Positions 247 through 28,437 of a stretch of DNA of 33,525 nt are shown in pieces. This stretch comes from Nemertoderma westbladi (taxonomy: Eukaryota > Animalia > Xenacoelomorpha). The position numbers were made by a program, and so were the translations under genes. The DNA is taken from the NCBI GenBank assembly GCA_032718475.1, contig JAUCBJ010001548.1, forward strand, positions 1 to 33,525, in the 5' to 3' direction. The notes under the pieces were generated by a model. It was not told the origin of the DNA, ran no database searches, and saw only the letters and a list, made by a program, of their open reading frames with translations. The first letter of the stretch is position 1; each line of letters opens with the position of its first letter.

Positions 247-258
247 CCACCCCCCCTA
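247..258 (-). promoter_or_regulatory. Polypurine tract of element 1
   Basis: Purine-rich G run on the minus strand (TAGGGGGGGTGG-like) immediately before the 3' LTR. Confidence 0.85.
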
Positions 259-3438: not shown

Positions 3439-4076
3439 GAGAAGGAACACGGGGCCTTACAGTTCTTCGCTTTGGCACCGTACTTGGCGTGGTACCAGCA
3501 TAACGTCGAGGAAGTCGAGGACCGTGCTGGCGTATCGCGTCCCCCGTCGCTGCGGTGGGGGCGACTGACTCCGAAAGCGGGAGGTTGTTGGGCCTTGGTC
3601 TCGACAACGGCGTCGGCGGCTTCCGCGAGTTCGCGAACGTCAGCAATTTTTAAGGCGGAAACCATTAGCCGGACATCGTCTGGAAGTTGCTGAAGAAACA
3701 GTTGGCGGAACAGTTGATCCACGGGGTTGTTGCCGTTTAATGCCAGCATGTAGTCCAGCAATTCTGTAGGTCGTTTGTCGCCGAGTCCAGGAAGGTTTAA
3801 TAGTTTAGAGGCCTTCTGCTCCGGTGTCAGGCCGTAACACCGCAGGAGAGCCGCCTTCAGGAAATCATATTTCCCGGTGGTTGGGGGGTTCGAGATCGTC
3901 GCTACCATCCGACTGGCCACGGTTTGTTCCAGCGCGGCGACGACGTAGAAATACCGCGTTTCGTCAGTGGTGATGGCGCGGGTAGCGAATTGGGCCTCGG
4001 CCTGGAGGAACCACACGTGCGGTTCGAGGGGCCAAAACGTTGGTAGTTTTAGTGATACCGCGTTTTGTTCTGCCAT
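3414..4076 (-). CDS. gag: Gag protein of element 1
   Basis: N-terminal VSLKLPTFW...WFLQAEAQF motif and C-terminal CWYH-x9-C-x3-C (CHCC) zinc knuckle, located upstream of pol. Confidence 0.93.
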
Positions 4077-4120
4077 CGTGATCGTGACGTTGGTTGTTCC
4101 GGTTATCGGGTGGTAGCAAA

Positions 4121-4137
4121 TCTCGTCCGGGTCACCA
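4121..4137 (-). promoter_or_regulatory. Primer binding site, tRNA-Trp type
   Basis: TGGTGACCCGGACGAGA on the minus strand, 1 nt from the 5' LTR. Resembles the complement of the tRNA-Trp 3' end. Confidence 0.85.
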
Positions 4138-4138
4138 A

Positions 4139-4391
4139 TGTGGGAGCGCTAGAGAGTCGTCCCTCTAGCCTTCCAACTTCTTATATTATATCAAAAGGTT
4201 ATATATATAATGATATCGTGTAATGAAACAATATAGGCCGTTAGGTACCGGTAGGTATGTGACAGCAGTATATATATATGAACTCAATGTTGATCTAGTT
4301 GCTAGGAAACCCCCGCAGTTGCCACAGAGATCAACCAAGCAAAAACACGGGTTATCAGTGACCATTAGCCCCGAAGGGGCAGTCCGCTACA
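4139..4391 (-). repeat. 5' LTR of element 1 (253 bp, TGT...ACA)
   Basis: Direct repeat of 1-246 with canonical termini. Confidence 0.95.
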
Positions 4392-6149: not shown

Positions 6150-6715
6150 AGGTAACTGACACTCAGATTTGTAATTGAGTACCTGAATTCGTTACTGGAT
6201 ATTTTGATATTCTCATGGCATTTGTTAACTGGGTTCTTGGGTTTGTTTCTGGCAACTTAGATTTGTAACTGGGCAGCTGAATTTATTACCTGGAACTCAG
6301 ATCTAAAAGTGGGTGCTCTGATCTGTAACCAGTAACTACAAATCATAACCAGAGACATAAATTCGTAACTGGGTGCTCATCTTTGTAACCAAACACTGAT
6401 TTTACGTGGGAACACAGATTTGTAACCAGGTACCGAGATTCGTAACTGGGAACTCCAATTCGTAACCAGGTTCTCAGATTAATAAATGATAACTCAGATT
6501 CGAAACCAGAAAGTCAGATTCACAACCATAAACTAAGATTTGTAACAAGGTACTCCAATTTACAACTATGATCATTATCATAATTGTGAGAACAGATTCG
6601 TACCAAGGTGCTTCGATTTGTAACCGAGAACACTAAATTGTTACAGGAATCTCAGATTTGTAACCAAAAACACAGATTTATAACCAGAAACTCAGATTTG
6701 TAACTTGGTAACCGC
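6150..6715. repeat. Degenerate ~20-bp tandem repeat (CAGATTYGTAAC core)
   Basis: GTAAC recurs at ~20-bp spacing (e.g. 6422, 6442, 6462). Paralogous copy at about 13475-13995. Confidence 0.75.
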
Positions 6716-6936
6716 AACCAATTGACAGTTTTTATGAAATACAATATCGGCTCCTTATCGGGCCGCTAAGCCAGTCCCTAGACAACCTTTATTAATCATT
6801 ATAACAAAAGGCGCACGTAGCAGTTCAATCTAAAACTAACGTCATATATAGTTTACTAGTTTAAACCGCAACCAGGGAGCAATAGTGTCTACCAATATAC
6901 ATGAAAGTTGAGAAACGTTCCTGACAAACATTACAG

Positions 6937-7514
6937 TTACCGAGTCTCCCCACTGCGGATACATTTGTGGCGCTTTGCATGATGTCGTTGGGAGAAACAT
7001 TTTCCGCATGTATCGCAGCTAAACGGTCGTTCCCCTGTATGTGATCTCTTGTGGCGCGTTAGATTGCTGCTCTCCGTAAATTCCTTCCCACACGTCTCGC
7101 ACACGTACGGTCGATCTTTCGTGTGAATTCTTTTGTGGGACGTTAAAATGCCGCTCTCCGTAAATCCTTTCCCACACGTGTCGCACATATACGGACGCTC
7201 TCCGGAATGCGTCCTCTTGTGATTGGTTAGGTTGCCTAGGTGAGAGAATCGTTTTTTGCAGATACCGCATTGGTAAGGACGCTCGCCGGTGTGGGTCCGT
7301 TGGTGTATAATTAGGTGGCTGTTCGATGGGAACGTCTTACCACAAGTATCACAGCTGAAGGGCTTCTGATTGGAGCGGCTTCCTTTCACAATATCTTGGG
7401 GTTGAATCCCAGACGGACCAGGTTGGTCGAAGGGATTATTCATACTTCGGAGTGTTACGTCATCCTCGGAAGTGAACATGTCTGAATCATCAGGGGATGA
7501 TTGTGATTGGCCGC
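6937..7514 (-). CDS. C2H2 zinc-finger gene copy A, last exon (4 C2H2 fingers + 1 C2HC)
   Basis: CxxC-x12-H-x3-H repeats with TGERPY-type linkers. Acceptor atccag at 7515 is phase 1 and in frame with the exon at 8054-9017. Confidence 0.9.
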
Positions 7515-7627
7515 CTGGATAATGTAATGGGGTGGATTAATAATGGAGAATATTTATTAATGTAGTTTTAAATTAATATAATTTCTAGACTCATAACTAT
7601 TATAACTGGATCACGATAACAAGAAAC

Positions 7628-7997
7628 AGGGATCCCGGTGAAAAAATGCAATCCCAGTCCAGATCCCGACTTTTTTGGAACGGGATCCCGATGTATAAAT
7701 AGTGAAGTAAATTTGTTGAATATCTGATAAATAGTTCCAGCAGAACGGATTATACCGAATTTTTATGTCAGTAAACCATCCAGTACTTTATTGCAAAATA
7801 ATTGTCTTTATCTTACTAATATTTCAGAAGTGTAAGATAAAGTGAGTGTTACCCTACACCTACCACATATACTAATAACTTTAAGGAGATTCATCAAAAA
7901 TTCTGAAATTGCAATCCCGATTCAAAAAAACGGGATCCTGAGAGTAATATTTCCGGTCCCGGAAATTCCGAAAAGTCTGATCCCATTTAAACACTAG
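7628..7997. mobile_element. Degenerate MITE-like remnant with ATCCCG/CGGGAT subterminal motifs in the intron of ZNF copy A
   Basis: Repeated GATCCCG motifs. Its right end (TCTGATCCC...ACACTA) resembles 4740-4813. Absent from the paralogous intron. Confidence 0.45.
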
Positions 7998-8053
7998 TTT
8001 GCAAGGAATACGGACTATAAACTATGTTTGCTATCCAAAACATATTAACTCAC

Positions 8054-9017
8054 CGATACCGGAAACTGTTGTTGATTTAGGTCTTAACGGAAGGTTGTAG
8101 GTGTTGGAAAGGCGTAAATCGAAGTCGCCTAGAGAATGAAAAGTGAGGCTTGGTGTGAAGCTAGTGGGTGGGGAGAGACCCTGGGTGGTGTGGGGGGCCG
8201 ATGAGCTAGTCCCTGTTAGGATATCGTTACGGATTCCATATGCTAAATCTACAGGGGAGAACAAATCGCCCAAGCCATCGCCAACCTCATTTAGATCGGG
8301 TTTATATTCATGTTCATCTTCCGTCTTAATGCGTAGGATTACCGGAACATCTGACTGGTCTGCTGATAGAGGTTGTGTAGAATAATGGTTTGAGTTGGTT
8401 GTGGTTACTGCAGGGGTATAGAAGGATAAGTTGCTATAAGATAATAACGTAGAACTGGCTGTAGGCCTATTATTACTCGATTCAGATTCAAAGAGGTTTG
8501 GATTGGTGTCTATCCGACTCAGTTTGGGATCTATTTGTCTTTGTTCTCCCGGGAGGTCTGTCTGGTTGTGTTGTTGTAACCTCACCACAGGCTGCATAGA
8601 GGAGGGTTCGGTAGGTTGGTTGCGTTGATTCGAGTATAGAGATTGCGGATGCTTTCCTGTCACAGGATTGTCATTGTTGTGGTACATGGCCGATGTCCTC
8701 AATGGACACTGCGGCATACTGGTCTTGCGGTACCCGGCAGTCGGGACAGTGGTCGGCGATTGGGCCGGACAGATGGGGGCTAGAGTAGAGGTGGTGGCGG
8801 CGTTGTTAGACCCAGAGGAGAGTGAACGCTGCAGCCACTCGGTAATATGAGCAGCTGTACAATTCTTAGCAACATAAGAGTCCAGAAAAATCGAGTTAGC
8901 GTCCAGGTAATCTTCCAGAAACGTCCGTACAAATGAACCATTTTCTGAACAGATGTTCGCGAACATCGATTTGGTAATTACCAATGCGTTGCCTGACTCA
9001 GAAGTAAACCATTCCAT
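8054..9017 (-). CDS. C2H2 zinc-finger gene copy A, upstream coding exon (conserved N-terminal domain + S/T/P/Q-rich linker)
   Basis: ATG at 9017, donor G|GTGAGT at 8053, 964 nt (phase 1). Homologous to 15986-16979. Confidence 0.8.
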
Positions 9018-9879
9018 TGTCTGATTGCTGTCACTTCACTTCAAAGTTCAAGTCGTCCCAGTTCGAGAAGCAATATGAACAATAATGTTTTAATATAGCA
9101 ATACTGCAATAGGAGCAGGCCAGGCCTAATGAGCTAATATTGTAATCAGGTAATAGTTTATACCGGTTATCAGTTATATTAATTCTACAATAATTCAGTA
9201 ATTACTGAATTATGGATCTATTTCTGTATTTCGCTTTGGTTGATTGGGTCAGTGGGTTGTTGCCAGTCCCTTAGTTCTGCAGTTTTCAGTTTTGGCCTGT
9301 TGGGTTTCAGTAATTTCGCGTTATACAGTCTGACAGCCTGACTGCAATACTTCCAAAACTTGCGCCAGATAGTGCCATTAAACCGCGCCAGTAGTGGCGC
9401 GTCCAAAATCGCCATTTTCAAGCCATTCGTTAATATAATTTAATGTCCCGGCCGGATACCCGGGTTCTTTCCTTAAAACATCTGATATTTAATTAAAACA
9501 GCGGATTTGTTTGGGGTGCATGTAAAGAGCGGACTGCGGACTACGGACTGCGGATTGTCAATTAAAAGCCCAAATATGCGCGGTCAATTTGAATTATAGC
9601 ATTATAATGTAAGAATCCGCTCTTTGTTGTCTGGACCATGGAATACTAAATTAAGACGGAACCACATATCTGTTATTGTGTCGTTTGCATAGAGGGGTTA
9701 CGGATATACCGGTACCAGTTAGTTTCTGCTGTAATGCGTGTACCTACCGCTGTAGCTGTATCTTACTTTATTTTATATTAATAGGCCTATAATTAATTAT
9801 TATTATTTTTATTAAAAATTATTATTAATTATAATTAATAAAGGTGGACTTGGTCGTTTGCACGAGAAGGTATCAACAT

Positions 9880-13010: not shown

Positions 13011-14228
13011 ATAATACCCCGAAATGTCTGATCCCTTTACACTAACTACACACTACAAACATAATGCATTTCACCAAATTTCCACGAGCTGTTAATGAGA
13101 TATTGACGATCGAAATTTGATCCAGGCAGAGAGAGGGACAATGTTAATTTGTCCATTCTAAACTGTAAGGTTCATTCACTTCGTGGCTCGCCCCTTAGTT
13201 ATTGATTATGTTATTGTTGAATATGTTATGCTGCTATGCGGGATGTTATACAATCGTGATTTTGGTTGATACATTAATTTTATGCCGTAGTGATTTTTTT
13301 TCAATTTTAAACTTTATATTTAATTTGGTTTATTCTAATAAAGTAATTTAATGACCTATTCGTTGTACAGCGGATGTGGACGTTAAATATTATAGAAGAA
13401 GATTTTTTTATAAAATAAATGCTCAACATGTGCAAATTACAGTATTAGTATGGGTAGTGCTGGCTGATAAAAAGGTAACTGACACTCAGATTTGTAATTG
13501 AGTACCTGAATTCGTTACTGGATATTTTGATATTCTCATGGTATTTGTTACTGGGTGGGTTCTTGGGTTTGTTACTGACTACTTACTTAGATTTGTAACT
13601 GGGCAGTTGAATTTATTACCTGGAACTCAGATTTAAAACCGGGAACTGGGTGCTCATCTTGGTAACCAAACACTGATTTTATGTGGGAACACAGATTTGT
13701 AAACAGGTACCGAGATTCGTAACTGGGAACTCCAATTCGTAACCAGGTTCTCAGATTCATTAATGGTAACTCAGATTCGAAACCAGAAAGTCAGATTCAC
13801 GACCATAAACTAAGATTTGTAACAAGGTACTCCAATTTCATTTCATTGATCATTATCATAATTGTGAGAACAGATTCGTACCAAGGTGCTTCGATTTGTA
13901 ACCGAGGACACTAAATTGTTACAGGAATATCAGAATTGTAACCAGAAACTCAGATTTATAACCAGAAACTCAGATTTGTAACTTGGTAACCGCAACCAAT
14001 TGACAGTTTTTTATGAAATACAATATCGGCTCCTTATCGGGCCGCTAGGCCAGTCCCTAGACAACCTTTATTAATCATTATAACAAGAGTTGTAGTACTG
14101 AGTGACATATAGCAGTTCAATCTAAAACCAACGTCATATATAGTTTACTAGTTTAAACTGCAACCAGGGAGCAATAGTGTCTACCAATATACATGGAAGT
14201 AGAGAAACGTTTCTTACAAACATTACAG

Positions 14229-14890
14229 TTACCGAGTCTCCCCACTGCGGATACATTTGTGGCGCTTTACTTGATGTCGGTGTGAGAAACATTTCCCACA
14301 TGTATCGCAGCTAAACGGTCGTTCACCTGTATGTGTTCGCTTGTGAGTTTTTAGATTGCTGCTCTGCGTAAATCCCTTCCCACACGTGTCGCACAAGTAC
14401 GGTCGATCTTTCGTGTGAATTATTTTGTGGGACGTTAGATTGCCGCTCTCCGTAAATCCCTTCCCGCACGTGTCGCACACGTACGGACGCTCTCCGGAAT
14501 GCGTCCGCTTGTGCGAGGTTAGGTGGCCTAGTCGAGAGAAACGTTTCTGGCACTCATTGCAGTTATACGGTTTCTCCCCACTGTGGGTTCGCTTATGCTT
14601 GGATAGGTTGCTTACGTGAGAGAATCGTTTGTTACAGATGCCGCATTGGTAAGGACGCTCGCCGGTGTGGATCCGTTGGTGTCTAATTAGGTCGCTGTTC
14701 TTTGCGAACGCTTTATCACAAGTATCACAGCTGAGCGGCTTCTCATTGGAGCGGCTCCTTTTCACAATGTCCTGGGGTTGAATCCCAGAGGGACCAGGTT
14801 GGTCGAAGGAATTATTCATACTTCCGGGTGTTACGTCATCGTCGGAAGTGAGCATGTCTGAATCATCAGGGGATGGTTGTGATTGGTCGT
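14229..14890 (-). CDS. C2H2 zinc-finger gene copy B, last exon (5 C2H2 fingers + 1 C2HC)
   Basis: Six fingers with TGERPY/SGEKPY linkers. Acceptor ttctctag at 14891, phase 1. Confidence 0.9.
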
Positions 14891-15276
14891 CTAGAGAAAG
14901 TAATGGAGTAGATTAAAAATGGAGAATATTGGAAACGAGAATAATTGAAGTAATTAATGCAATAATTAGTCAATAGAACTTGCTAATTACTGTAGTTTTA
15001 AATTCATATATGTAAATAAATACGATTTTCGATTCGACATTGTAAATTAATACGTGTGAGGTTTGATACTTTAATTACTAAAAAAACATAAAATATAAAA
15101 TAAGCACCATTAATTACTGATACTGACTGAAATATTATAACCTGTAAAGGGAGGGGTCTTAGAAAATATTGCAGCACTGATTAATGTGATTATGGAGTGT
15201 CTCGGAAAAACTGAATATTTTAAGTGATAGACGCAATAGTTAGGACCTATTTATAAGACAGTGATTCAGATATATA

Positions 15277-15635
15277 CTCTGGAGTCCCGAATAGACGGGG
15301 TGGGTGGAAAAATTTCATTATGCTAATATTCGGGGTGGCTGGAATGAACGTCGTGGGAGGAAAATTTAGGCCTACTTACTTAACCTACAGTATAGTCGTA
15401 CAGGTACAGTAGTATCTACGGCTACCGGTGGTATACTCGGCACACGGTTTTTGTTTTCTTTCACTTTCAAATCTCAATTATTATGAGAATAAACGTTTAT
15501 TTACTCATAATAAAAAATGTACTAAATTTTTTTAGAAAAACTTAATAGTCGGGGTGTCTGGAATAAGAGAATTGTGGGTGGATTTTTTTTTTAAAAATAA
15601 TAGCCGTGTCGCCCCGTCTATTCGGGACTCCTGAG
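15277..15635. mobile_element. MITE (359 bp) with TA target duplication, Tc1/mariner-superfamily-like
   Basis: 24-bp TIRs CTC(T/A)GGAGTCCCGAATAGACGGGG with one mismatch, flanked by TA on both sides. Lies in the intron of ZNF copy B only. Confidence 0.85.
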
Positions 15636-15985
15636 TAATCGCAATAACTTGTGCGACGCAGAATGAATTCCCTTGTATTTGTATTTCTTCATCTGGATAA
15701 TAGAGTTCAGGCATTTCTCTGACAAAGCTAAAAATGGGATGTCTCTATTCTGGAGTATTGTTTGCAATTTGGCGAGTTTTGGAAATAGGCTTCGTGTATT
15801 ATATTTGTTATTTGGTGAGAAAGGCTTCAGGCTAGATTGAATTTAATTAAACCAGATAAAAACCCTAAAAACAAAAACTAAACTCAGAACCATCATATCT
15901 GTCACTATAAATAAACAACTACTCTGACCAGTTTGGGGGCAATACGGACTAAACGATGTTTATAATACAAATCATAGTAACTCAC

Positions 15986-16979
15986 CGATACTGGAAACTG
16001 TCGATTTGGGGGCCAACTGGATGTTGTAGGTGTTGGGAAGGCTTAACTTGAAGTCGTCTAGAGACTGAGTAGTGAGGGTTGGTGAGGAGCTAGTGTCTGT
16101 TAGGGGACCATGAGCGGTGTTGGGAGACAGGGAGTTAGAGTCCGGGACGAGATTCTGCTGAGCTGAGTGGGTGGTCGAAGCATTAGTGTCTGTACTATTT
16201 CCATATGCTACATCTATTGGGGAGAATAAATGGCCCAAGCCATCGCCAACCTCGTTTAGGTCGGGTTTATATTCCAGTTCGTCTTCCGTCTTAATGCGTA
16301 GGATTACCTGAACATCTGACTGGTCTGCTGATAGAGGTTGGGTAGAATAGTGGTTTGAGTTGGTTGTGGTTACTGCGGGGGTATAGGAGGATATGTTGTT
16401 ATAAGATAATAAAGTTGAACTGGCTGTATTATTACTCGATTCATATTCAATGAGGTTTGGTTTGGTGTCTATCGGACACAGTTTGGGATCCACTTGTCTT
16501 TGTTCTCCCGGTAGGTCTGTCTGGTTGAGATGTTGTAACCTCACCACAGGCTGCATAGAGGAGGGTTCGGTAGGTGGCGTGGGTTGATTCGAGTATCGAG
16601 ATTGCGGATGCTTTCCTGTCGCAGGATTGTAATTGTGGTGGTACGTAGGTGGCGACGCCGATGCCGTCAATGGACACTGTGGCATACTGGTCTCGTGGTA
16701 CCCGGCAGTCGGGACAGTGGCCGGTGATTGGGGCGTGTTGTAAGACAAATCCGAATTGGCGGCGTTGTTAGACCCAGAGGAGAGTGAACGCAGCAGCCAC
16801 TCGGTAATATGACCTGCCGTACATTTATTAACGACATAATAGTCCAGAAAACTCAAGTTCGCGTCCAGGTATTCTTCGAGAAACGTCCGCACAAACGGAC
16901 CATTTTCCGAACAGATGTTCGCGAATATAGATTTGGTAATTAGCAGTGCGTTGCCCGACTCACAAGTAAACCGTTCCAT
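15986..16979 (-). CDS. C2H2 zinc-finger gene copy B, upstream coding exon
   Basis: ATG at 16979, donor G|GTGAGT at 15985, 994 nt (phase 1). Homologous to 8054-9017. Confidence 0.8.
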
Positions 16980-17370
16980 TGTCTGATTGTTGTCGCTTAA
17001 AGAGTTCAGGTCCTCCCGGTTCGAGAAGAAATGGATATTAACTGAATGAAGATTTAATATACTGATATAGGCCTAATGCAGTAATGAGCTAGGTGTAGGA
17101 CTGTACAGTACAAGTCCCTAAAAGGTGCCACCCTGCTCCATAGCGCGGGAAATTCAAATGATTGAATGAAAGACATGTTATTTGTACTGGAAAGGGTGGC
17201 AGATCAGATCTGCCACCTATATATTGGTGGTAAATTCAAATCTTTTTTAACATTGAATACATGAATAGAGTAAGACCAATCTGCCAACTGTGAATGAATT
17301 ATAGAGTTATATATAGTTATAGTTTATTATGAGTTATAGAATGAGTGAATAATAATAGAAGTGATAGTCA

Positions 17371-18092
17371 TCATAACCTTAGTAAATCATTGCTCATGTT
17401 TCGTATTAAAAACTTAAACGTTTTTTTACAGTCGCGTAATGACCCACATAAATGTGGAGGAATCACCAGCAGATGCTGTCCTTCCTGGAGATATCCCTCG
17501 CAGAGAGTCGAAATCTCTGGCATGCATGCCGGCAACGTGCATCCAAACGCTTTCAATGTTTCTATAGAATCTCTTTCTACAGTGTGAAGGTAGTTCGGAC
17601 TTTGCAAATATAAAATGTTCGGTTTTCCTCCAGGTGACAGCGATCCACACCGACGAAGTCTGTGCGTATTGTGGTGGAGTTTTATAAGATCCAACGTTTT
17701 TTGGAGATATGGAAGATATACGTAGCGAACAAGTTCAATATGCAATACGTTTGAAGTATCCAATAACTCCATCTCTAAGTTTCTAAAATGTTCTATCCAC
17801 TGTGATAGTCCTAACACTGGAATCTTCGACCAGAATGCCTCGATCCTTTGGTTCCTCGTAGATTTACCGTATATATACGTTAAACCTCTCATTGCATAGC
17901 TATCTGTTTGAGACAACCTTAGTGTCCGTTGGATAATTTCGATATTTACATTTTCCGTTCCTCGGTCCGACCTAACTATGTGTGGTACACCTCCTAATGC
18001 CTCAATAAGTTCCAAATAATAACCAGCGACTACAAAAGGATCATTATTTGACTTTCCACATTTTAGCCACAATAGTTTTCTGCTAAAACCAT
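17371..18092 (-). CDS. IS3EU-type DDE transposase, exon 2
   Basis: DGFSRKLLWL, RSDRGTEN and GKSTRNQRIEAFW motifs. Acceptor gatag at 18093 restores HGAIDGFSR across the junction. Confidence 0.85.
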
Positions 18093-18387
18093 CTATCACC
18101 CAGGTGAGAGTATTTCTGTGTGAATAATAAGTGACTGAATTGAAAGTGAAAGTTAATTAGATACAGCATCACATGTATCCTTCGACGGGCGGGCCCGGTT
18201 ACAGAAGGGACAGGTTACAGAAAATGGGAATATTAGGACACGCGCTAACGCGCCAGCGCGCTAACTACTGACCAAACGGTAAATACGGTAAACGGTTATT
18301 TCCTAAGTTGAAACAGTGCATGGTGCAAAAACGTGCAGAGTGCACGCACAATTTTATCTATCTCGGACCATCAAGAAATACTCTCAC
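18093..18387 (-). mobile_element. 295-bp GT-AG intron bounded by 16-bp inverted repeats (introner-like element)
   Basis: AGGTGAGAGTATTTCT at 18102-18117 and its exact complement at 18374-18389. G(C/T)GATAG direct repeat at both splice junctions. Confidence 0.7.
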
Positions 18388-18850
18388 CTATCGCGCCATG
18401 AACTGTTAATGAAAACGGCTTGAGTTTATCCCACCCATCTATGTGTATTAAGAAATTTGGCCCTTTGGAAATGTATGTTCGGCGTACGAGTCTATGACGT
18501 ATTCTACATTGTCGACCTTCTGGATCTAGAATGCGCAACAGGTGAGCCACCAACTTTCGAGGTACGTAATGTTTGTACTCATACATTAGAATCTTCTGCA
18601 TTTGTCTGTAACCAACAGGACTGGGTGATTGCGTGACTTCCCTATTCTTCACCAATTCATATTTGAGCGCTTCAATAACGCTTCCAAACTCGGAGGGATT
18701 AAATTGCCTTTTCAATTGTAAGTTGGACATCAACCGCCTAACTGTCCTCGCGGAAATAAACACTCCATGAGTTTCTTTAAATAGCAGCTGAATTTCTCTG
18801 TGAGTAAATCCTTGCCAGTAGTATTGAGTAAGTAATTCATTAACAGACAT
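18388..18850 (-). CDS. IS3EU-type DDE transposase, exon 1
   Basis: HTH-like N-terminus (ISARTVRR, GYRQM), then LDPEG...RRTY...GPN..HIDGWDKLKP..VHGAI. Donor G|GTGAGA. The spliced ORF is 1185 nt, 394 aa. Confidence 0.85.
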
Positions 18851-19013
18851 TATTTATTAGGCTGGCCTACTGCGTACGAAAAGGACTAATGTTTGCTGTA
18901 GGCCTACTGCAAACAACTGGAGTAAACAGAAGTATAGCGATACATATATATTTACATTTATATTTCCCGCTTTCCCATTTATATAGAACGAATTGTCATT
19001 GGTCATATGCAAG

Positions 19014-19513
19014 TATTTTCAACCCGGGTTGATATTATTTTCAACCCGGGTTGATATTATTTTCAACCCGGGTTGATATTATTTTCAACCCGGGTTGATA
19101 TTATTTTCAACCCGGGTTGATATTATTTTCAACCCGGGTTGATATTATTTTCAACCCGGGTTGATATTATTTTCAACCCGGGTTGATATTATTGATATTA
19201 TTTTCAACCCGGGTTGATATTATTTTCAACCCGGGTTGATATTATTTTCAACCCGGGTTGATATTAGTTTCAACCCGGGTTGATATTATTTTCAACCCGG
19301 GTTGATATTAGTTTCAACCCGGGTTGATATTATTTTCAACCCGGGTTGATATTATTTTCAACCCGGGTTGATATTATTTTCAACCCGGGTTGATATTATT
19401 GATATTATTTTCAACCCGGGTTGATATTATTTTCAACCCGGGTTGATATTATTTTCAACCCGGGTTGATATTATTTTCAACCCGGGTTGATATTATTTTC
19501 AACCCGGGTTGAA
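19014..19513. repeat. Tandem array of 22 copies of a 22-bp unit containing the palindrome TCAACCCGGGTTGA
   Basis: Unit TATTTTCAACCCGGGTTGATAT counted directly. Two 9-bp partial duplications and two T>G variants. Confidence 0.97.
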
Positions 19514-19544
19514 ATTAAAAAAAAAAACGCTTAATTAATATTGT

Positions 19545-19566
19545 TTGGCCGCTTTCAGCCACCGTA
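19545..19566 (-). mobile_element. Probable terminus (TIR) of the IS3EU-like element
   Basis: TACGGTGGCTGAAAGCGGCCAA on the minus strand fits the TAYGG-type terminus recalled for IS3EU. No partner TIR was found in the window. Confidence 0.5.
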
Positions 19567-19626
19567 GAATAAATTATTTATTATCGGTTTAACTCACTCA
19601 TCCGTTAATGTTGTTGATTTATCTAT

Positions 19627-20358
19627 TCTGGGACTTCGAGCAGCACGTGAACAATTAAACCAGCACGCTAACTACCGGCAGTCTGGGGCTTCGAGCACCA
19701 CGTGAACAACTAAACTGGCTGGTTACCTGGTCTGGGACTTCGAGCAGCACGTGAACAATTAAACCAGCACGCTAACTACCGGTTGTCTGGGACTTCGAGC
19801 AGCACGTGAAAAACTAAGCTGCCTGGTTAACTAGTCTGGGATTTCGAGCAGCACGTGTACAACTAAGCTGCCTGGTTAACAAGTCTGGGACTTCGAGCAG
19901 CACCTAAACAACTAAGCTGACTGGTTAACAATTTTTATAGTCTGGTACATGTCTGGAACAGATATACAGATATAGCAGTATAGGCAGAAGCATTATACAC
20001 CTATTGTTATTACAGTAGGCAGTTCCCTGCTATATTGTTATAATTATAATGTTTTGATATAATTATAACTGATACAAGCAAATAATAAATGTTCTTTAGT
20101 CTTTACATTTACTGCTAGAAGTTAAGCCAAATCCCCCGACCCCCCCCCCCCCCCTCCTCAATTTGCAATTTTGCTCGAAGTTCCAGACTAGTTAACCAGT
20201 CAGCTTAGTTGTTCACGTGCTGCTCGAAGTCCCAGACTAGGTACCAAGCCAGTTTAGTTGTTCACGTGCTGCTCGAAGTACCAGACTAGGTACCCAGCCA
20301 GTTTAGTTCTTCACGTGCTGCTCGAAGTCCCAGACTAGTTAACCAGTCAGCTTAGTTG
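19627..20358. repeat. Foldback-like structure: six 49/55-bp direct repeats, a ~240-bp spacer, then about four inverted copies
   Basis: Core TCTGGGACTTCGAGCAGCACGTGAACAA at 19627, 19682, 19731, 19786, 19835 and 19884. Reverse-complement copies at 20172-20358. Confidence 0.9.
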
Positions 20359-21540
20359 TCAGCGTGGTGAACGATCAGTAGAGGCTGAGAAAGCGAAGGT
20401 AAGTGGCCTGTGATCAGTAAGTATGTGGAACTTTCTACCCTCGACGAAGTGTTGGAAGTGTTTAATGGAGGTGTAGATAGCTAAAAGTTCACGGTCGAAA
20501 GTGCTGTACTTCGACTCAGCAGTGGTAAGCTTCCGGGAAAAAAATGCCAGTGGTTGCCAAACTCCAGAGTTCTGTTGTTCCAGCTGTGCACCAACGGCAA
20601 TGTCGGATGCATCGGTGCTGATCCTTGTATCCCTCGTACGGCTAGGGTGTATGAGAAGGGTGGCGTTTGCAAGTGCTGATTTTGTGGCTTCAAAGGCGGA
20701 CTGACAGTTTGTGGTCCAGATTATATCTTTACCTTTGCCCTTTGTTGCTTCATGGAGTGCTGAAAGGGTGCTGGCAACATGCGGAATAAAGCGGTGATAA
20801 TAATTTATCATTCCAAGGAAACGTTGGAGTGCAAGTTTTGATTCAGGTACTGGGTAGTCGAGGATGGCAGAAACTTTGGTTGGTAGTGGAGTAATGCCTG
20901 TGGCATTGATGTTGTGTCCTAGGTATGTGAGTTCTGCTGAACCGAAAACACACTTACTCCTATTTATTACCATCCCATTGTCGAGAAGGAGGCGGAAAAC
21001 CTGTCTTAAGTGGTCTGCATGTTCCTCAGAGTTTGTACTAGCAACAAGGATGTCGTCTAGGTAAACAAATGTGAAGGGAATGCCGCGTAGGATGCCATCC
21101 ATGAGGCGCTGGAAGGCCTGCGCGGCATTTTTCAGTCCGAATGGCATCCTGAGGAACTCATAACCCGAAGGGTGTTATGATGGCAGTTTTAGCTACATCG
21201 TTGGTATGGACAGGGATGTGATAAAACCCTCGCACCAAGTCGATCTTTGAAAAAATAGTTGTGCCATCAAGACTGGCATTGAAGTCTTGTATGTGAGGGA
21301 GGGGATATCTATCATCCGTTGTGACATCATTTAGTTGGCGGAAGTCCCCACATTGGCGCCAGCCACCACCAGGTTTGGGGGCGATATGGAGGGGAGAGGA
21401 CCAAGGCAAGTTGGATTGGCGAATGATACCGAGTTCCTCCATTTTGGCAAACTCTGTTTTGGCAATTTCCAACTTCTCAGCATCGAGACGCCGAGCTCGA
21501 GAGTGAAGTGGTGGTCCTTGGGTATGGATATGGTGTTCTA
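20359..21540 (-). pseudogene. pol: pol fragment (RT and RNase H) of element 2, broken reading frame, truncated after RNase H
   Basis: MPFGLKNA, YLDD, TDAS, DRELLA and TDHRPL motifs split over ORFs 21158-21472 and 20359-21147. Confidence 0.92.
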
Positions 21541-21742
21541 TATGACGTACCGGCCAATACAGTATAGCAGTACTGCGGTAGCACGGCTGTAAAACACTAT
21601 TCTGCTGTCAGCTCAATTATATCTAATATCTATATATATATACCGGTAGGTACTGTCAAGCAACACTTAGATCCTACTCGATAATAAAGTAATACAGTAT
21701 ATCCATCATATATGATATCCCTTCACCAGGACGCACTATATA
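21541..21742 (-). repeat. 3' LTR of element 3
   Basis: Identical by eye to 25955-26156. Confidence 0.95.
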
Positions 21743-21807
21743 TCTCCCCATAACAGAAGTGGAACATAAGGTTTTATTAGGGAGGATAAAAATGGACTTT
21801 CGTTCCC

Positions 21808-24800
21808 CTACGTGTAGTGGATAGTGTTATATGGTTGCTCCTTGTCAGTTTTACTTTCAGTTTCTCTTTGGGCAATAGGTAAATGCTGTTTAACTGTCTT
21901 TGGGGATGATTTTGCTAGGTTATCGCTGTTTTGCTTGGGTTTCCACGCCGTATCAGTTACTATGTAAGGTTTAAGTCGATCGATGGAGACATTTTGGTCA
22001 CCACTTGGGGTTAATAGTTTGAAATATTTCTCGCACCGCTCGATGACCTCGAATGGTCCTTGGTAGGGAGCTTGGAGGGCTTTTCTCGCGCGGTCGATTC
22101 TTACAAAGACTTTCTCACATTTTTCTAAGGTCTTTGGGAAGTATGAACGTTGATTTTTATTCAGTGTACCATCTGTAGATTGCACAATAAACCCTAACTC
22201 GGTGATGTGGTTGTGTAATTTGTTGACATAATCTAAATTAAAGTTCATATCAGTAGGGGCCACCAAACAAGCAGGTAGTAATGCTTTTGAGCCAGTCACC
22301 AGTTCAAATGGTGAGATTCCGGTTACATGGGATTGTGTAATGCGGTAACTGAATAAAACGATTGGTAGGGATTCTAACCAGTCTTGTTTACGAGCTTTTA
22401 GGGCAGCTTTCAAAGTTCGGTGGAAACGTTCAACTTTCCCGTTTGCTTGAGGATGGTATGCTGTCATTCTTAACCGATGGAAACCTATTAATTTGGAGAG
22501 GTCGGACATCAACTCAGACTCAAACTGGCCGCCGCGGTCTGTGGTGATGTATAGAGGAACACCGAATCTGCAGAACCATGTTTCAACAAAGGCTGTGGCT
22601 GTTGCAGCTGCGGTAATATATATAACCGGAGTGGCTTCAGCCCATCCTGTATGTCTGTCTATAAACGTTACTACATATGGGTATGGATGATTATCTGTAG
22701 GTAGTGGACCTACAATGTCGGAATGTATGTGTGAAAACCGTGGGGCTAGAGGGAATGGTTTCAATGGGGCTTTTATATGTTGGGTTATCTTTGATTGCTG
22801 GCATGGGATACAGCTACGACACCAGCTTGTTATATCTCTCCTCGCATTGTTCCATATGAATCGGTCTGTGATCAGACGGATAGTGGTTTTAATGCCTGGA
22901 TGTGCTAAGTTATGAATCTCATAGAAAACCTCCTTCTTAAATGATTCTGGAATAATTGGCCGGGGATATGTAGTTGAAATATCACATATTACATCCCTCC
23001 CGCATGCAGTTTTAAATATCTTAATATCAAATGGGTGTTTATCTGACAGAAGATCTGTGTCTTCCTTCTGGGCATTTGCAATGTCATCTAAACCAAATGG
23101 GTCAATGTATGTTGAGTTCACATGTCGAGAGAGTGTATCCGCGACTATATTAGAATTTCCTGGGATATATTCTACTTTATCAATAAATTCAGCCAATAAG
23201 GACAGTTGACGGTTTTGGCGTGGGGATAGACTCTCGGGTTTATTGAATGCGCCGATTATTGGTTTGTGGTCTGTATATAAAATAACGTTTCTTCCCTCTA
23301 ACAAGGATCGGAAATGGACAGTACTGTCGTATGCAGCTAAGAGTTCACGCTCATAGGTTGATAATAGAGATTCTTTAGGAGTGAGCCTACGCGAGAAGAA
23401 ACTAAGAGGAACTGAATCTTCTGTGGATCGTATTTCGTGAACGGCTCCACCAATAGCAAACTTTGAAGCATCAGTTGTTAGTGATAATGGACAATCGCCC
23501 TTGGAAGGGTGGTGTAATAAAACAGCATTGGCCAAAGCAGTTTTAAGTTTATCGTAGGCCGCTGAATGTTCTGGGAGCCACTCATTAGCTTTAAAATCGC
23601 ATTGTTGTTTTTTACGTTTATTAGGTTGTGTAGATGTTAATAAAGTTTGTAAAGGGTGACTAATTTCACTAAATGCTGGGATAAATCTACGGTAGAAATT
23701 GAACATCCCAATAACCCTGCGTAAGTCATTGTAACTACGAGGTTCTGGAATTGAGTTCAATGCAGTGACTCTTTCAGGGGGAGGTAAAATACCATCTGCA
23801 AACACCCGAAATCCAAGAAATGTAATTTCAGTTTTGCACCATTCGCACTTGGTAAAGTTTATTTTTAAGTTGTTGTTATGCAGTCTTTCAAATATGAGTC
23901 GCAAATGTTTATAATGAGTGTCTTTATCAGTACTGTGTACTAGAATATCGTCCATGTATAGAATAACAAATGATAAATCACCTAGAGATTCATTCATTTT
24001 GCGTTGGAATGTTTGCCCAGCATTACACAGGCCATAGGGCATCCTAGTAAATTCAAATAGACCGAATGGTGTTGTAACTGCTGTCTTAGGAACATCTTCC
24101 TCTGACATTGCAATTTGGTTGTAGGCCCTGACTAAGTCTATTCGGCTGAAAATTCTAGAACCTTGTAACTGTGAAGTGAAGTGCTGAATGTGAGGTAATG
24201 GGTATCTATCAGGTTTAGTTATTCTGTTTAGTGCTCTATAGTCGCCACACGGACGCCATTGGTCTTTTTTATTTGCTTTAGGGGCCATATGAAGAGGCGA
24301 GGCCCAGGGACTTTTGGAAGGGCGAATAATTCCCCGTTCCTGTAAGTCTGTAAAAACTTGTTTTGCAGCTGCTAATTTCTGTCCATTTAGCTGCCGTGGT
24401 TTGGCTGCAATTGGTGGGCTATCTCCTGTTATTATTCGATGAGTAGTATTTGATGCAGGATTACTGGAGAATGCTGAATCTTGGTCAAATAAGTCAGCAA
24501 AATCTTTCAATAGTGTATCTATATTTCCATCTGAGTGACTTAATTCAACTTTGTATACCGATTGTGTCTCGGATGCCTCGACAAAAGATACTGTACTCCG
24601 TATTTTTGTAGTTCCATCTATTATTTCACGGTTTTTACAGTCTAAAAGCATATCATAATTAGAAAGAAAATCAATTCCAATAATATTATCCCTCACATCC
24701 GCTACAAAAAATTTCCAAGGAAATTTGCGTCTTAATATTGATAGTTGTAGGTTTACTTTACCGTATACTGTTATAGGGGTACCGCTAGCAGCGCACAGTT

Positions 24801-24993
24801 GTACTGGTGTTGATTCCCATATAAACTGTTTAACAGGTTCGGGTCGTAATATACAAACTTGAGATCCTGTATCTATTAAAAATGGTAGTTTGTGTTCTAT
24901 TTCGCATACTGAGTTAGAGATTGCTGCGGTAGTTTTAAATATGGCAGCGCCCTCAGCGCTCGCAGCCGCTGCACTGAGGGCTGCTAGTTTTCC
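21808..24993 (-). CDS. pol: Pol polyprotein of element 3
   Basis: The frame stays open upstream of the track start (24696) and includes the protease FLIDTGS. It then has YMDD RT, TTDAS RNase H, HHCC/DDE integrase and YQGPF. There is no ATG before the protease, so it is frameshift-dependent. Confidence 0.95.
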   Translation of the reverse strand, partial: GKLAALSAAAASAEGAAIFKTTAAISNSVCEIEHKLPFLIDTGSQVCILRPEPVKQFIWESTPVQLCAASGTPITVYGKVNLQLSILRRKFPWKFFVADVRDNIIGIDFLSNYDMLLDCKNREIIDGTTKIRSTVSFVEASETQSVYKVELSHSDGNIDTLLKDFADLFDQDSAFSSNPASNTTHRIITGDSPPIAAKPRQLNGQKLAAAKQVFTDLQERGIIRPSKSPWASPLHMAPKANKKDQWRPCGDYRALNRITKPDRYPLPHIQHFTSQLQGSRIFSRIDLVRAYNQIAMSEEDVPKTAVTTPFGLFEFTRMPYGLCNAGQTFQRKMNESLGDLSFVILYMDDILVHSTDKDTHYKHLRLIFERLHNNNLKINFTKCEWCKTEITFLGFRVFADGILPPPERVTALNSIPEPRSYNDLRRVIGMFNFYRRFIPAFSEISHPLQTLLTSTQPNKRKKQQCDFKANEWLPEHSAAYDKLKTALANAVLLHHPSKGDCPLSLTTDASKFAIGGAVHEIRSTEDSVPLSFFSRRLTPKESLLSTYERELLAAYDSTVHFRSLLEGRNVILYTDHKPIIGAFNKPESLSPRQNRQLSLLAEFIDKVEYIPGNSNIVADTLSRHVNSTYIDPFGLDDIANAQKEDTDLLSDKHPFDIKIFKTACGRDVICDISTTYPRPIIPESFKKEVFYEIHNLAHPGIKTTIRLITDRFIWNNARRDITSWCRSCIPCQQSKITQHIKAPLKPFPLAPRFSHIHSDIVGPLPTDNHPYPYVVTFIDRHTGWAEATPVIYITAAATATAFVETWFCRFGVPLYITTDRGGQFESELMSDLSKLIGFHRLRMTAYHPQANGKVERFHRTLKAALKARKQDWLESLPIVLFSYRITQSHVTGISPFELVTGSKALLPACLVAPTDMNFNLDYVNKLHNHITELGFIVQSTDGTLNKNQRSYFPKTLEKCEKVFVRIDRARKALQAPYQGPFEVIERCEKYFKLLTPSGDQNVSIDRLKPYIVTDTAWKPKQNSDNLAKSSPKTVKQHLPIAQRETESKTDKEQPYNTIHYT

Positions 24994-25868
24994 GGTCGAC
25001 TCGGTGAGTTTGGTCGCGATTGTGGGCGGGATGACGGGTCTATAGTTGTGGGTTTCTTACCCGGCCAACGACACCATGGTTTACAACGTTTAGCCCGTTC
25101 CCCATAGTATATGTGAAATCTACAAACCTTAGGTTTTTGGCCCTCTGAGAATGGATAAATCGTACCAGAAACGCCCACAGCTCCGGCATGGTTGTGGTTA
25201 CTCGACCGTGAGTTGTATGGTTGTTGATTTTGGGTGGGTGGTGGTCGATAAACAGCAGTAGCTCCGAGGGTAGGGAGTGGTGTTTGGACGTTCTGTTGGT
25301 TTGTGAATTGCAGGATGGTGTCTGCAAGTTTAGCGAAGTCCTCTGGAGGAAGATTCATATGACCGAGTAATGTTGAACGAGCTGATGAAGGAAGAGCTTG
25401 TAACAGTTTATGTCTTACAACATCATCGTCCGCGGTAAGTTGACATTCTGCCATCTTGCGTTTAATTCTCATGTAGACTAGCGAGGGTTTTTGCCCTTCC
25501 ATGGATACTTGGCCAAGCGCTTCTTCTAACAACTCTGACTTAGTTTTCTGATATAATTGTAGGATGATTGATTTAATTTCGCTGTAAGATGTAACTTCCG
25601 GTGTTATATTTAGAGCTACGTCTTCCGGAAGGTTGGCCATAACGTGGTGAAATTGGGTTTGCTCGTTCGTTACTCCTGCCAGGACAAAGTGCGATTCAAT
25701 CGTACGGAACCAAATCGTCGGATTTGACCGATAGAACACGGGTGGCTTTACTGCCACACGTGACACGTCCAAGAGTGCAGACATGCTGCCGCCGCCGCTA
25801 TTATTTTGATTACTGGAGTCTTGAAACGGTGGTGGTTTGATCGTATTCGTATCGCTTCCGGTAGCCAT
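24984..25868 (-). CDS. gag: Gag of element 3
   Basis: VAVKPPVFY...WFRTIESHF motif and CRFH-x9-C-x3-C CHCC knuckle. Confidence 0.93.
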   Translation of the reverse strand: MATGSDTNTIKPPPFQDSSNQNNSGGGSMSALLDVSRVAVKPPVFYRSNPTIWFRTIESHFVLAGVTNEQTQFHHVMANLPEDVALNITPEVTSYSEIKSIILQLYQKTKSELLEEALGQVSMEGQKPSLVYMRIKRKMAECQLTADDDVVRHKLLQALPSSARSTLLGHMNLPPEDFAKLADTILQFTNQQNVQTPLPTLGATAVYRPPPTQNQQPYNSRSSNHNHAGAVGVSGTIYPFSEGQKPKVCRFHIYYGERAKRCKPWCRWPGKKPTTIDPSSRPQSRPNSPSRPEN

Positions 25869-25954
25869 GTTATAATTTACAGAATTTATTTCAGTACATT
25901 AATGTATTTATTAATTAAAAATGGTCAGAATAATTCAATTGTCCGGGTCACCAA

Positions 25955-26156
25955 TATGACGTACCGGCCAATACAGTATAGCAGTACTGCGGTAGCACGG
26001 CTGTAAAACACTATTCTGCTGTCAGCTCAATTATATCTAATATCTATATATATATACCGGTAGGTACTGTCAAGCAACACTTAGATCCTACTCGATAATA
26101 AAGTAATACAGTATATCCATCATATATGATATCCCTTCACCAGGACGCACTATATA
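25955..26156 (-). repeat. 5' LTR of element 3
   Basis: Direct repeat of 21541-21742, 1 nt from the PBS TGGTGACCCGGAC. Confidence 0.95.
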
Positions 26157-26161
26157 TTCTA

Positions 26162-27422
26162 CACCATGTTTGTTTGTCGCGTCTGCGTAGAAGCATGGTA
26201 CCAAAAGTTCAGGGACTCATCAATGATCTTGTCGAAGGGATTACCAGAGACGGAGTGGATGTCTGAGATAGATGGCTGTATGTGGGATTCCTTGGAAAGG
26301 GGTCGTTGTCAGCAGTTTCAAGTCGAGGAGGCGACGCCCAGTCATGTCGATTGCCAAGTGGTTGTCCGCAAAGAAATCTGCACCGAGGATAGGTTGTGAA
26401 ACTTCAGCAAGGCGAAACTTGTGGATGAAGGATCGACGACCGAGTAGGAGAGGGATGTCCCGTGAACCCCAGGTGTGGATGATGGTTGAGTTTGCAGCTT
26501 CAAGTGGATCTGTGCATGCGTTGTACCGCTTTTCATATGCAGATGCAGGGTAAACTGAGTAATCTGCACCACAGTCTACGAGGTAGTGGCGACCAGAGCG
26601 GCGGTCACAAACCGTCATCGTGTTTCTTTTCGTCGTTGGAGGGTGGCCGACCGTAGAGACGCCTAGCAGTCGGCCTTGGAGTTTCCCGGGGCTTTGAGGT
26701 AGTCAATGTTTGTACTAGTTTGCGTAGTGGGCAATCCCCTTGTTTACAGTTCCGTGCTTTCTCTCCAAATTTTACGTGGTAGAAACAAAGGCTGTGTGTA
26801 GTGGTCGTTAGGTGAGGTGGGGCGAAATGGGCAGCATTGATGCTGGATGGACCGAGTTCGAGACATCCAGCCTCGATAATGTGGTCTGCCTCTGTTGCTA
26901 GTTTTTCGAGGTCTGTAGTTCCATATCCAGCAAGGATGCGACACACTTCAGTAGGAATTTGGGCCATGAATAGAGCGCGAAAAATTGTCTCAGGGTCACT
27001 GTTCAGGGAACGCATGTGTCGTAGCAGACCCGATGGTGTTCGGTCTCCAAGGCCAGAAAATGACAGCAGTGCGTTGTCTCTCGCTGCTTGCGTTGTTCCA
27101 AATGCTTTTATCAGGGCAATCTTGAGAGCCTCATAGCGTTCATTAGCGGGAGGATCGAGGATGAGGGCACGAACTTCTTTTGCGGTTGCATTATCAAGGG
27201 AAGCTACTAAATAGTTGAACTTGGTCTTGTCAGCAGTGATCGGTGGAGTAAGTGTCTCAAATTGCGCCTCCACTCGAGTGAACCAGATTTCTGGATCAGA
27301 GGTCCAAAAAGTAGGTAGTTTGACTGACACAGATGTGATTGTTGGAGTGGATCGGTGACGGGTTGTGCCTGTGCTAAGCAGTTGAGGGCCTCGGCGATGA
27401 GCAGAATGTCGTTGGGATCCAT
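26162..27422 (-). pseudogene. gag: gag and protease region of element 2, frameshifted
   Basis: ATG at 27422 is out of frame with VSVKLPTFW...WFTRVEAQF. CFYH-x9-C-x4-C knuckle. Protease site reads YLVDCGA. Confidence 0.88.
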
Positions 27423-27482
27423 CTGTTGCTTCCCAGTGTGCAGGGTGTGTCAGCGAGTAAAGTTCTTGATCGTCCGGGTAAT

Positions 27483-28437
27483 AATTTTTGGAAAGAGGAG
27501 AAGACCACCCAGGCAATATAGCACTTACGGGGGCCCGAAAATTGAAATTATCGGTCAAAGTGGCAAAAATCTTGAAAATCAATATCCATTAATCGAACTG
27601 AAAAAATATTTGGGGTTGGCGAATCTACTAGAGATTGAGGTAATGAGTTCCATACAGGCACCACCCTATTAGAAAAAAAGTATTTTGAGATTAAAAGACG
27701 TGAATGGGAAACAAGTAATTTGTGAGAATGACCCCTAAGCCCAGGTCTACCTGTATAAGAAAAATATTTATCAAAACACAAATCAACTAAATTTCTCTCA
27801 ATTTTATACACCATCTTTAAATCAAAAATTATGCGCCTAACTTCCAATGGTTTTAACTTAAGAAACTGCAGTCGATCTACGTAGGTCATATATGGTAGTT
27901 TGCAACGGGCAAACAATCTGCGGGTGAAGTACTTTTGGACACGTTCGACCAAATCAATTGTACATTTATGATGAGGAGACCAAATGTAAGTACAATATTC
28001 CACTAAAGGACGAATATATGCTTTGTAAGCCGTAATAAGGGCAGATCGATTTGCAGTACGGAAGCACCGAAATATCATATTGGTTATTTTATTTGCTTTG
28101 GCGGCTTGCTCCCTACAGTACACATTAAATTTCAAGTCAGGGCACATAATCATTCCTAGATCCTTGCCATCCATGCATTCCAATTTTAAACCACTTAAAA
28201 AGTAAGGGTTTTCAGGGTTATTTAGTCCTAAGTAAAGCACTTGACACTTATGACTAGCTACGTTAAGTTGCCATGTATTAGACCAGGACGACAAAGCACC
28301 CAAAGAATCACATAAATTAATATAATTAGAAGACGGTGCATAAATCTTTACATCATCAGCGTATAATTTACAGCACACACCATTAATTCCAATTAAATCA
28401 GGTAAGTCGTTTATAAAAATCACGAATAAACTGGGTC
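27483..28437 (-). mobile_element. 5'-truncated CR1-group LINE (C-terminal ORF2 reverse transcriptase, 27548-28423, plus short 3' UTR)
   Basis: FINDLP, LYADDVK, KCQVL, YIRPLVEYC..IWSP, ERVQ, RGHSHKL and FFSNRVVPVWNSLP are typical CR1 ORF2 motifs. Confidence 0.92.

What the first reader, a model, noticed from the sequence alone, without database searches (positions are those of the whole stretch)
18093..18389. Introner-like element: a TIR-bounded insertion that splices itself out of a transposase gene
Seen: the only intron of the IS3EU-type transposase splits the conserved HGAIDG motif. It has perfect 16-bp inverted repeats (18102-18117 and 18374-18389), and the repeat itself contains AG|GTGAGA, so it supplies a donor in either orientation. 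The acceptor lies 9 nt outside the far repeat, in GTGATAG, a near-duplicate of the exonic GCGATAG (TSD-like). Splicing restores a 394-aa ORF with the motif intact. Known: introners are non-autonomous DNA transposons that create introns by carrying one splice site and co-opting the other from the target duplication. Inference: a possibly undescribed animal introner family, here parasitising another transposon.
Basis: partly seen in the sequence, partly recalled or inferred. Interest (0 to 1): 0.8.

Follow-up and report, generated by a model that had tools for sequence, protein, structure and literature searches.

The report
Lone mini-transposon intron inside a transposase
A 288-base insert with matching inverted ends interrupts the enzyme gene of an animal jumping gene and is likely a small transposon that is spliced out as an intron, but no second copy and no RNA were found, so it looks like a one-off of a known kind rather than a new intron-spreading family.

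Summary
Observation confirmed: perfect 16-bp inverted repeats (18102-18117, 18374-18389) and a 295-nt GT-AG interval (minus strand, 18387-18093) that splits HGAI|DG; removing it gives a 394-aa IS3EU/GingerRoot-type transposase. The insert is derived: 0 of 80 related loci carry it, and the protein sits in a clade with 13 uninterrupted relatives. Best geometry is a 288-bp element plus a decayed 7-bp target duplication (5/7); the acceptor AG is the host's own, next to the duplication. The 'family' claim is not supported: three DNA runs show no other copy and no empty site, while a neighbouring high-copy repeat and 80%-identical paralogues were detected; members sharing only the 16-bp ends would be missed. 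Splicing is untested (no RNA holder). The intact frame favours a working gene (rough Bayes factor 16-77). A better-looking acceptor at 18135 is also in frame and would add 14 residues. Verdict: a likely solitary transposon-derived intron, Ds1-like in anatomy, inside another transposon. The scan has no earlier look-alike.

The parts
18102..18389 (-). 288-bp non-coding insert bounded by perfect 16-bp inverted repeats (likely non-autonomous DNA transposon)
   Evidence: absent from 80 of 80 related loci
18374..18389 (-). Near arm; supplies exonic AG and the predicted donor GT at 18387-18386
   Evidence: donors of the two neighbouring zinc-finger genes also read GTGAG
18102..18117 (+). Far arm; the same donor motif on the other strand; its inner AG (18117-18116) is an out-of-frame acceptor candidate
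18390..18396 (-). Exonic copy of the probable 7-bp target duplication (GCGCGAT)
18095..18101 (-). Intronic copy of the probable 7-bp target duplication (GGGTGAT, 5/7)
   Evidence: chance of 5/7 or better about 0.015 for one geometry
18093..18094 (-). Host AG: acceptor that would restore the 394-aa frame exactly
   Evidence: 11 of 20 upstream bases pyrimidine
18135..18160 (-). Internal branch-like CTAAT, pyrimidine tract and CAG ending at 18135: best-looking acceptor, in frame, would give 408 aa (14 extra residues)
   Evidence: 15 of 20 pyrimidines, 43-nt AG-free run
18274..18296 (+). Cluster of three [A/T]ACGG repeats (two AAACGG), resembling Ac/Ds subterminal repeats; noticed post hoc
   Evidence: 35 of 2000 shuffles have 2 or more
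18388..18850 (-). Transposase exon 1 (463 nt): HTH-like region and first catalytic-motif Asp (D138)
17371..18092 (-). Transposase exon 2: PF24764 integrase core with D197 and E239 motifs
   Evidence: (E 1.7e-19)
19537..19566 (-). Likely 5' terminus of the host IS3EU element (TACGGTGGC...); no matching second terminus in the window
   Evidence: same 9-mer upstream of the ORF in 7 of 80 related loci

Best explanation
A 288-bp insert with perfect inverted ends sits inside the catalytic-core codons of an IS3EU-type transposase gene and is likely a single small non-autonomous DNA transposon that is now removed as an ordinary spliceosomal intron. Inferred steps: it inserted just before a host AG and duplicated 7 bp; its end begins AG|GT, so it brought a donor and replaced the host's exonic AG, while the host AG after the duplication became a possible acceptor (394 aa). 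The spliceosome may instead or also use the stronger internal acceptor at 18135 (408 aa). The insert has since travelled only as a passenger of the host transposon; it has no detectable family of its own in this genome.
For: Anatomy shown. Derived position: 0 of 80 related loci have an insert at this site; 156 of 190 related proteins align without a gap across it, 4 with unrelated gaps, 30 begin too late to tell; the protein lies in a clade (FastTree support 0.978) with 13 uninterrupted proteins; paralogues in the same organism's runs read through the site (loose ends at 18417 and 18390). Solitary: flat depth and no further contig over the insert in three runs, no empty-site joint. Working gene: both exons are open with the three catalytic motifs intact although the duplication has drifted by 2 of 7; rough Bayes factor 16-77 over a dead copy. 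Unspliced RNA would stop 5 codons into the insert and lose two of the three motifs. Precedent: singular transposon-derived introns and this donor/acceptor logic are described.
Against: No RNA evidence of any kind. The exact-restoring acceptor is poor (GGG before TAG, 11/20 pyrimidines, two AGs upstream) while the host's own acceptors nearby are pyrimidine-rich. The duplication is only 5/7, and both mismatches fall in it rather than in the 16 paired positions (p 0.08); CpG decay does not explain this, as CpG observed/expected is about 1. The Bayes factor assumes the duplication is real. No protein with a 14-residue insert at this site was seen among 190, and the site is the end of a core strand in a model of a homologue, so the 408-aa form may be inactive. 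The protein has the longest branch of 46 in the tree (0.79, median 0.45), compatible with relaxed selection. The relatives were ranked by score, which favours uninterrupted genes.
Confidence: 0.55

Rival explanations
1. The insert is a recent ordinary MITE insertion that killed this transposase; the splice-like edges are chance and the element is inert or moved by a related enzyme.
For: No RNA holder could be tested; weak exact acceptor; perfect arms suggest youth; at 0.5-1% divergence the frame stays open with probability 0.2-0.7; 6.4% of positions in this coding sequence are followed by AG, so the geometry is not very rare; the window is rich in short inverted-repeat elements; related transposases exist in the same runs.
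Against: A recent MITE should have close copies elsewhere and the host family should show an empty allele; neither was seen in three runs. Two changes in 23 paired positions are unlikely at such low divergence (0.02-0.08).
Confidence: 0.2
2. It is one member of a true introner family, whose other members share only the short ends, were filtered from the contigs, or live in another species from which the host transposon was horizontally acquired.
For: Textbook introner anatomy with a donor in either orientation. The contig test needs about 40-50 matching bases, and the tool states that some records are left out. Introners are known in aquatic animals and move horizontally. No whole genome was available.
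Against: No copy in three runs, with working positive controls; no arm pair in metagenome or viral contigs at spacing 245-275; no look-alike in the scan's notes; no close relative of the host protein above about 55% identity to suggest a donor.
Confidence: 0.12
3. The intron arose by another route (for example repair filler) and the far arm is an inverted copy of the donor junction made by template switching, not a transposon end.
For: The repeat starts at the exon's last AG and covers exactly the donor. The duplication is imperfect. Unreviewed notes report many splice-junction-seeded repeats in this genome. Other members of this transposase family gained ordinary introns without inverted ends (7 of 80 loci).
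Against: Those noted repeats are head-to-tail, not single inverted copies. Arm plus 7-bp repeat add up exactly to the intron length (288 + 7), and the interior has short repeated motifs like transposon subterminal sites.
Confidence: 0.1

Closest known systems
TIR/TSD introners (Micromonas pusilla IE families, Chrysochromulina, Florenciella, Aureococcus; Gozashti et al., 10.1101/2022.06.06.494994 parts 1-2 of 5 read; PMC12130899 parts 1-2 of 7 and passages read; PMC11282704 parts 1-2 of 5 read)
   Same: Short non-coding element with inverted ends and a target duplication; carries the donor and takes the acceptor from the target site; mRNA length unchanged, or codons added if an internal acceptor is used (as in Aureococcus).
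   Different: Those are multi-copy families in unrelated genes with RNA support; here one copy, in a transposase gene, without RNA evidence.
Maize Ds1 (non-autonomous hAT; PMC3260210 passages read; its splicing known here only from two reference titles in that paper, Dennis 1988 and Wessler 1991)
   Same: Under 500 bp; ends can be read as (T/C)AGG with the same first-base asymmetry as C/TAGGGATGAAA; a few AAACGG repeats; spliced from exon sequence, with alternative acceptors.
   Different: Ds1 has an 8-bp duplication, hundreds of copies and a known partner (Ac). Here 7 bp (or 5 bp in the T/C reading), one copy, no partner. hAT families with 5- and 7-bp duplications exist (PMC12730594, passages). 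The resemblance was noticed post hoc.
IS3EU/GingerRoot DNA transposons (host element; PMC10045372, PMC6839031, PMC12730594, passages read)
   Same: HGAID, VRSD and NQ[K/R]IEAFW motifs as in the GingerRoot query sequence; TAYGG terminus; DDE transposase/integrase fold in a homologue's model.
   Different: Second terminus and 6-bp duplication are not in the window. Some relatives have ordinary introns near codon 294, none at this site.

Membership tests
Introner | Insertion creates a new intron position absent from homologues | tested here: met
   0 of 80 loci; clade of 13 uninterrupted proteins; ranking favours uninterrupted genes
Introner | Transposon hallmarks at the intron ends (TIR and/or TSD) | tested here: met
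   16-bp perfect arms; 7-bp duplication only 5/7
Introner | At least 4 similar copies in genes of different paralogy groups (PMC12130899 methods) | tested here: not met
Introner | Splicing shown by RNA reads | not testable with these tools
   No RNA holder listed
Non-autonomous hAT (Ds1-like) | Termini of the (C/T)AGG type with short TIRs | tested here: inconclusive
   True only in the 290-bp reading, which needs 3 changes against 2
Non-autonomous hAT (Ds1-like) | 8-bp (5-7 in some lineages) target duplication | tested here: inconclusive
   7 bp at 5/7 or 5 bp at 3/5
Non-autonomous hAT (Ds1-like) | Autonomous partner with the same ends | not testable with these tools
   No genome; none in the window
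IS3EU/GingerRoot (host) | Integrase-like DDE transposase with HGAID / VRSD / NQxIEAFW motifs | tested here: met
   homologue model matches IstA, TnsB, MuA (E 2e-5 to 1e-4)
IS3EU/GingerRoot (host) | TA..TA (TAYGG..CCRTA) termini | tested here: inconclusive
   One terminus at 19566, the other absent from the window; both present in L072
IS3EU/GingerRoot (host) | 6-bp target duplication | not testable with these tools
   Second end missing in the window; no perfect TIR+TSD pair in 48 loci of 2.5 kb or more
Group I intron | U at exon end, G at intron end, conserved core fold | tested here: not met
   Any frame-restoring cut slides over GATAG, so exon end and intron end are the same base; no Rfam match in the insert; folding z -0.75

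The most novel reading that the evidence does not exclude
A hitch-hiking introner: a hAT-like mini-element that survives by becoming the intron of another transposon's own enzyme gene, is copied and carried between animal genomes by that transposon, and whose two in-frame acceptors switch the host transposase between an active 394-aa and an altered 408-aa form; its parent family would be found in a donor species or as end-only relatives.
Probability: 0.12. Interest if true: 0.65.

Novelty: new member of a known kind. Interest (0 to 1): 0.3.

Why it matters
If spliced, it is a clean snapshot of intron gain by a transposon in an animal, with the empty state preserved in many relatives, and it sits in a mobile gene that could carry the new intron between genomes. 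The competing in-frame acceptors make it a simple RT-PCR test of how a new intron is first read. Without a family or RNA it does not extend the list of animal introners; single transposon-derived introns are already described.

Tried and rejected
No whole genome is held, so the decisive genome-wide scan for arm pairs could not be run. No RNA holder listed: no evidence either way. A wider read lay-out, meant to compare depth with neighbouring genes, gave no result, so the host element's copy number stays open. The single 16-mer gave 20 single matches in viral contigs, none paired, with no similarity beyond 16-20 bases: taken as chance. Arm-pair pattern: 0 in metagenome contigs, 0 in viral contigs (exact match, spacing 245-275 only). 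No viral relative of the transposase. Exon 1 with read-through into the insert found no protein; neither piece is in the protein collection; none of 190 proteins carries the read-through peptides. PDB sequence search: nothing. Rfam: nothing in the insert. Run X4 covers only 17286-17405 and paralogue pieces; its lack of cover over the insert was not used. A 16-mer shared (15/16) between the insert and the 49-bp repeats at 19660/19764 is borderline (63 of 2000 simulations) and was not used. CpG decay as the cause of the duplication mismatches was rejected. Literature: the arm sequence is in no paper of the library nor in 12 of 14 supplementary files of PMC12130899 (files 13 and 14 not searched, and the introner sequences themselves are deposited elsewhere). 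Searches for a transposon-derived intron inside a transposase gene gave nothing relevant; subscription papers and Repbase entries were not searchable. 10.1101/656579, PMC2921059, PMC4455052 and PMC12905397 were seen as passages only; bioRxiv supplements are closed.

Full report
Observation. The arms 18102-18117 and 18374-18389 are exact reverse complements for 16 bp and do not extend outwards. In 3000 base shuffles of the 321-nt region the longest repeat between the two ends was 12, and the 16-mer has no other match in the window at up to 3 mismatches. On the minus strand 18387..18093 is 295 nt, GT..AG, phase 1, inside the Asp codon of HGAIDG. Removing it gives 394 aa from ATG 18850. Without removal the frame stops five codons into the insert. 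Short inverted-repeat elements are not rare here: 13 pairs of 14 bp or more within 1 kb lie outside the tandem arrays, this one included.

Host gene. Exon 2 matches PF24764 (E 1.7e-19) and exon 1 weakly matches HTH families. The motifs HIDG (D138), VRSD (D197) and NQRIE (E239) are intact and match the GingerRoot query sequence printed in PMC6839031 (passages); IS3EU and GingerRoot are one lineage with TA..TA ends and 6-bp duplications (PMC10045372, passages). A model of homologue P0007 (pLDDT 81) matches IstA, TnsB and MuA and puts the interrupted codon at the end of the second core strand. A TACGGTGGC terminus lies at 19566 on the minus strand; the same 9-mer lies upstream of the ORF in 7 of 80 related loci (8 plus-strand hits; about 1 expected from 287 kb by my arithmetic), and L072 has it at both ends. 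The second terminus is not in the window. There a very high-copy repeat abuts 17286, whereas contigs of three runs carry 773 other letters at that point, and two runs also differ after 18969. So at least two structural versions of the insert-bearing element exist; copy number was not determined.

Is the insert derived? Yes, within the sampling. Of 80 related metagenome loci (best 80 of 545 confirmed, from 26 of 64 parts scanned), 78 align without a gap over residues 145-165, one has a 12-bp tandem duplication there (L023) and one a one-residue gap; none has a long insert. Of 190 related proteins 156 are contiguous, 4 have unrelated gaps and 30 begin too late to tell. In a tree of the window protein and the 45 best of 109 proteins covering residues 110-300, it falls in a clade with 13 uninterrupted proteins (support 0.978), on the longest branch. 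Paralogues in the organism's own runs read through the site: one for a single base past the joint, one for 30 bases (loose ends). Caveats: ranking by score favours uninterrupted genes and some proteins may come from transcripts. The family does gain introns: 7 of 80 loci (two appear identical) are split by 380-1880-nt inserts with splice-like edges, six near codon 294 of P0007 and one near codon 185, none with end repeats longer than 7.

Is it a transposon footprint? Probably. Element and duplication lengths must sum to 295. The fewest changes (2) come with a 288-bp element and a 7-bp duplication GCGCGAT/GGGTGAT; 286+9, 290+5 and 292+3 need 3 changes. A 5/7 match has chance about 0.015 for one geometry, and six geometries were tried. 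In the 290-bp reading the ends are TAGG and CAGG, like the C/TAGGGATGAAA ends of Ac/Ds, and the interior has two AAACGG hexamers (35 of 2000 shuffles), the Ac subterminal repeat (PMC3260210, passages). hAT lineages with 5- and 7-bp duplications exist (PMC12730594, passages). This was noticed after the fact and is a lead, not a classification.

Is it a family? Not shown, and the one available test speaks against it. Contigs of three DNA runs (two samples, two studies, either possibly the window's source) cover the insert at the same depth as the exons (135, 44, 109), with no further contig over it and no joint across it. The same call detected the neighbouring repeat at depth 12,000-53,000 and paralogue pieces of 50-96 bases at about 80% identity, so close copies should have shown. 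Copies sharing only the 16-bp ends would not, and the tool drops some records. The arm pair was not found in metagenome or viral contigs. The published working definition asks for at least 4 copies in genes of different paralogy groups and RNA support (PMC12130899, passages).

Is it spliced? Untested: no RNA run holds the region. Indirect support: no empty allele was seen, and the frame is open over 394 codons while 2 of 23 paired positions have changed; a simple model gives a Bayes factor of 16 (no indels) to 77 (indels at 10% of substitutions) for a maintained over a dead gene, with a flat prior and on the assumption that the duplication is real. Against: the exact acceptor has 11 of 20 pyrimidines and lies behind two other AGs. 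The first, at 18135, has a CTAAT branch-like motif, 15 of 20 pyrimidines and a 43-nt AG-free run, like the pyrimidine-rich acceptors predicted for the two neighbouring zinc-finger genes; it is in frame and gives 408 aa, with 14 extra residues before the Asp. The second, at 18116, is out of frame and lies inside the predicted arm-arm stem. So 'motif intact' depends on which acceptor is used.

Mechanism and odds. Shown: anatomy, derived position, no close copies in the contigs. Inferred: transposon origin, splicing, passenger status. Solitary transposon-derived intron 0.55; dead insertion 0.2; member of a hidden or foreign introner family 0.12; inverted duplication of the donor 0.1, a reading prompted by unreviewed notes on splice-junction repeats in this genome. 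A group I intron, suggested by another note on this genome, is excluded by the junction bases and Rfam.

Comparison and verdict. It works like a TIR/TSD introner that carries its donor (10.1101/2022.06.06.494994, parts 1-2) and like Ds1, but fails the copy-number test for membership. Singular transposon-derived introns are reported in many eukaryotes (PMC11282704), and introners are known in sea urchin and tunicates. I found no paper on such an intron inside an IS3EU transposase, but Repbase, subscription papers, two supplementary files and the deposited introner sequences were not seen. New member of a known kind; interest 0.3.

Noticed in passing
window 17100-17285: Very high-copy short repeat (summed contig depth 12,000-53,000 against 44-135 for the transposase) with a GGTGGCAGAT..ATCTGCCACC palindrome; it abuts and probably truncates the host element's 3' side.
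   Followed up: partly
window 19008-19518: About 23 tandem copies of a 22-bp unit containing the palindrome TCAACCCGGGTTGA, between the host element's terminus (19566) and its ORF; two runs diverge from the window after 18969.
   Followed up: partly
window 19619-19929 and 20172-20369: Inverted arrays of 49/55-bp units, cut at about 20360 by a Gypsy-like fragment; a 16-mer of the unit recurs at 15/16 inside the insert (18253), borderline by simulation.
   Followed up: partly
window 6177-9097 and 13500-17072: Two paralogous C2H2 zinc-finger genes, 80-86% alike, each with a large upstream exon of no Pfam family.
   Followed up: no
L090, L093, L095, L096, L098, L099 (also L091, L092): A subgroup of these transposases shares a probable spliceosomal intron near codon 294, which explains proteins in the collection that end near 'IIQV'.
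   Followed up: partly
L100:775-1549: A different, about 780-nt GT-AG intron at an AG|GT site in a related transposase, without inverted ends.
   Followed up: partly
L023, around the HGAID motif; run X4 piece at window 18390: Short tandem duplications at or next to the same motif (12 bp in L023, 5 bp in the X4 paralogue), possibly excision footprints or a hotspot.
   Followed up: no
L072:3728-7232: Apparently complete 3.5-kb IS3EU element with both TACGGTGGCTC ends.
   Followed up: no
window 256-4148, 20359-27588, 27548-28435: Several Gypsy-like gag/pol frames and a LINE-like reverse transcriptase fragment, judged from the translations.
   Followed up: no
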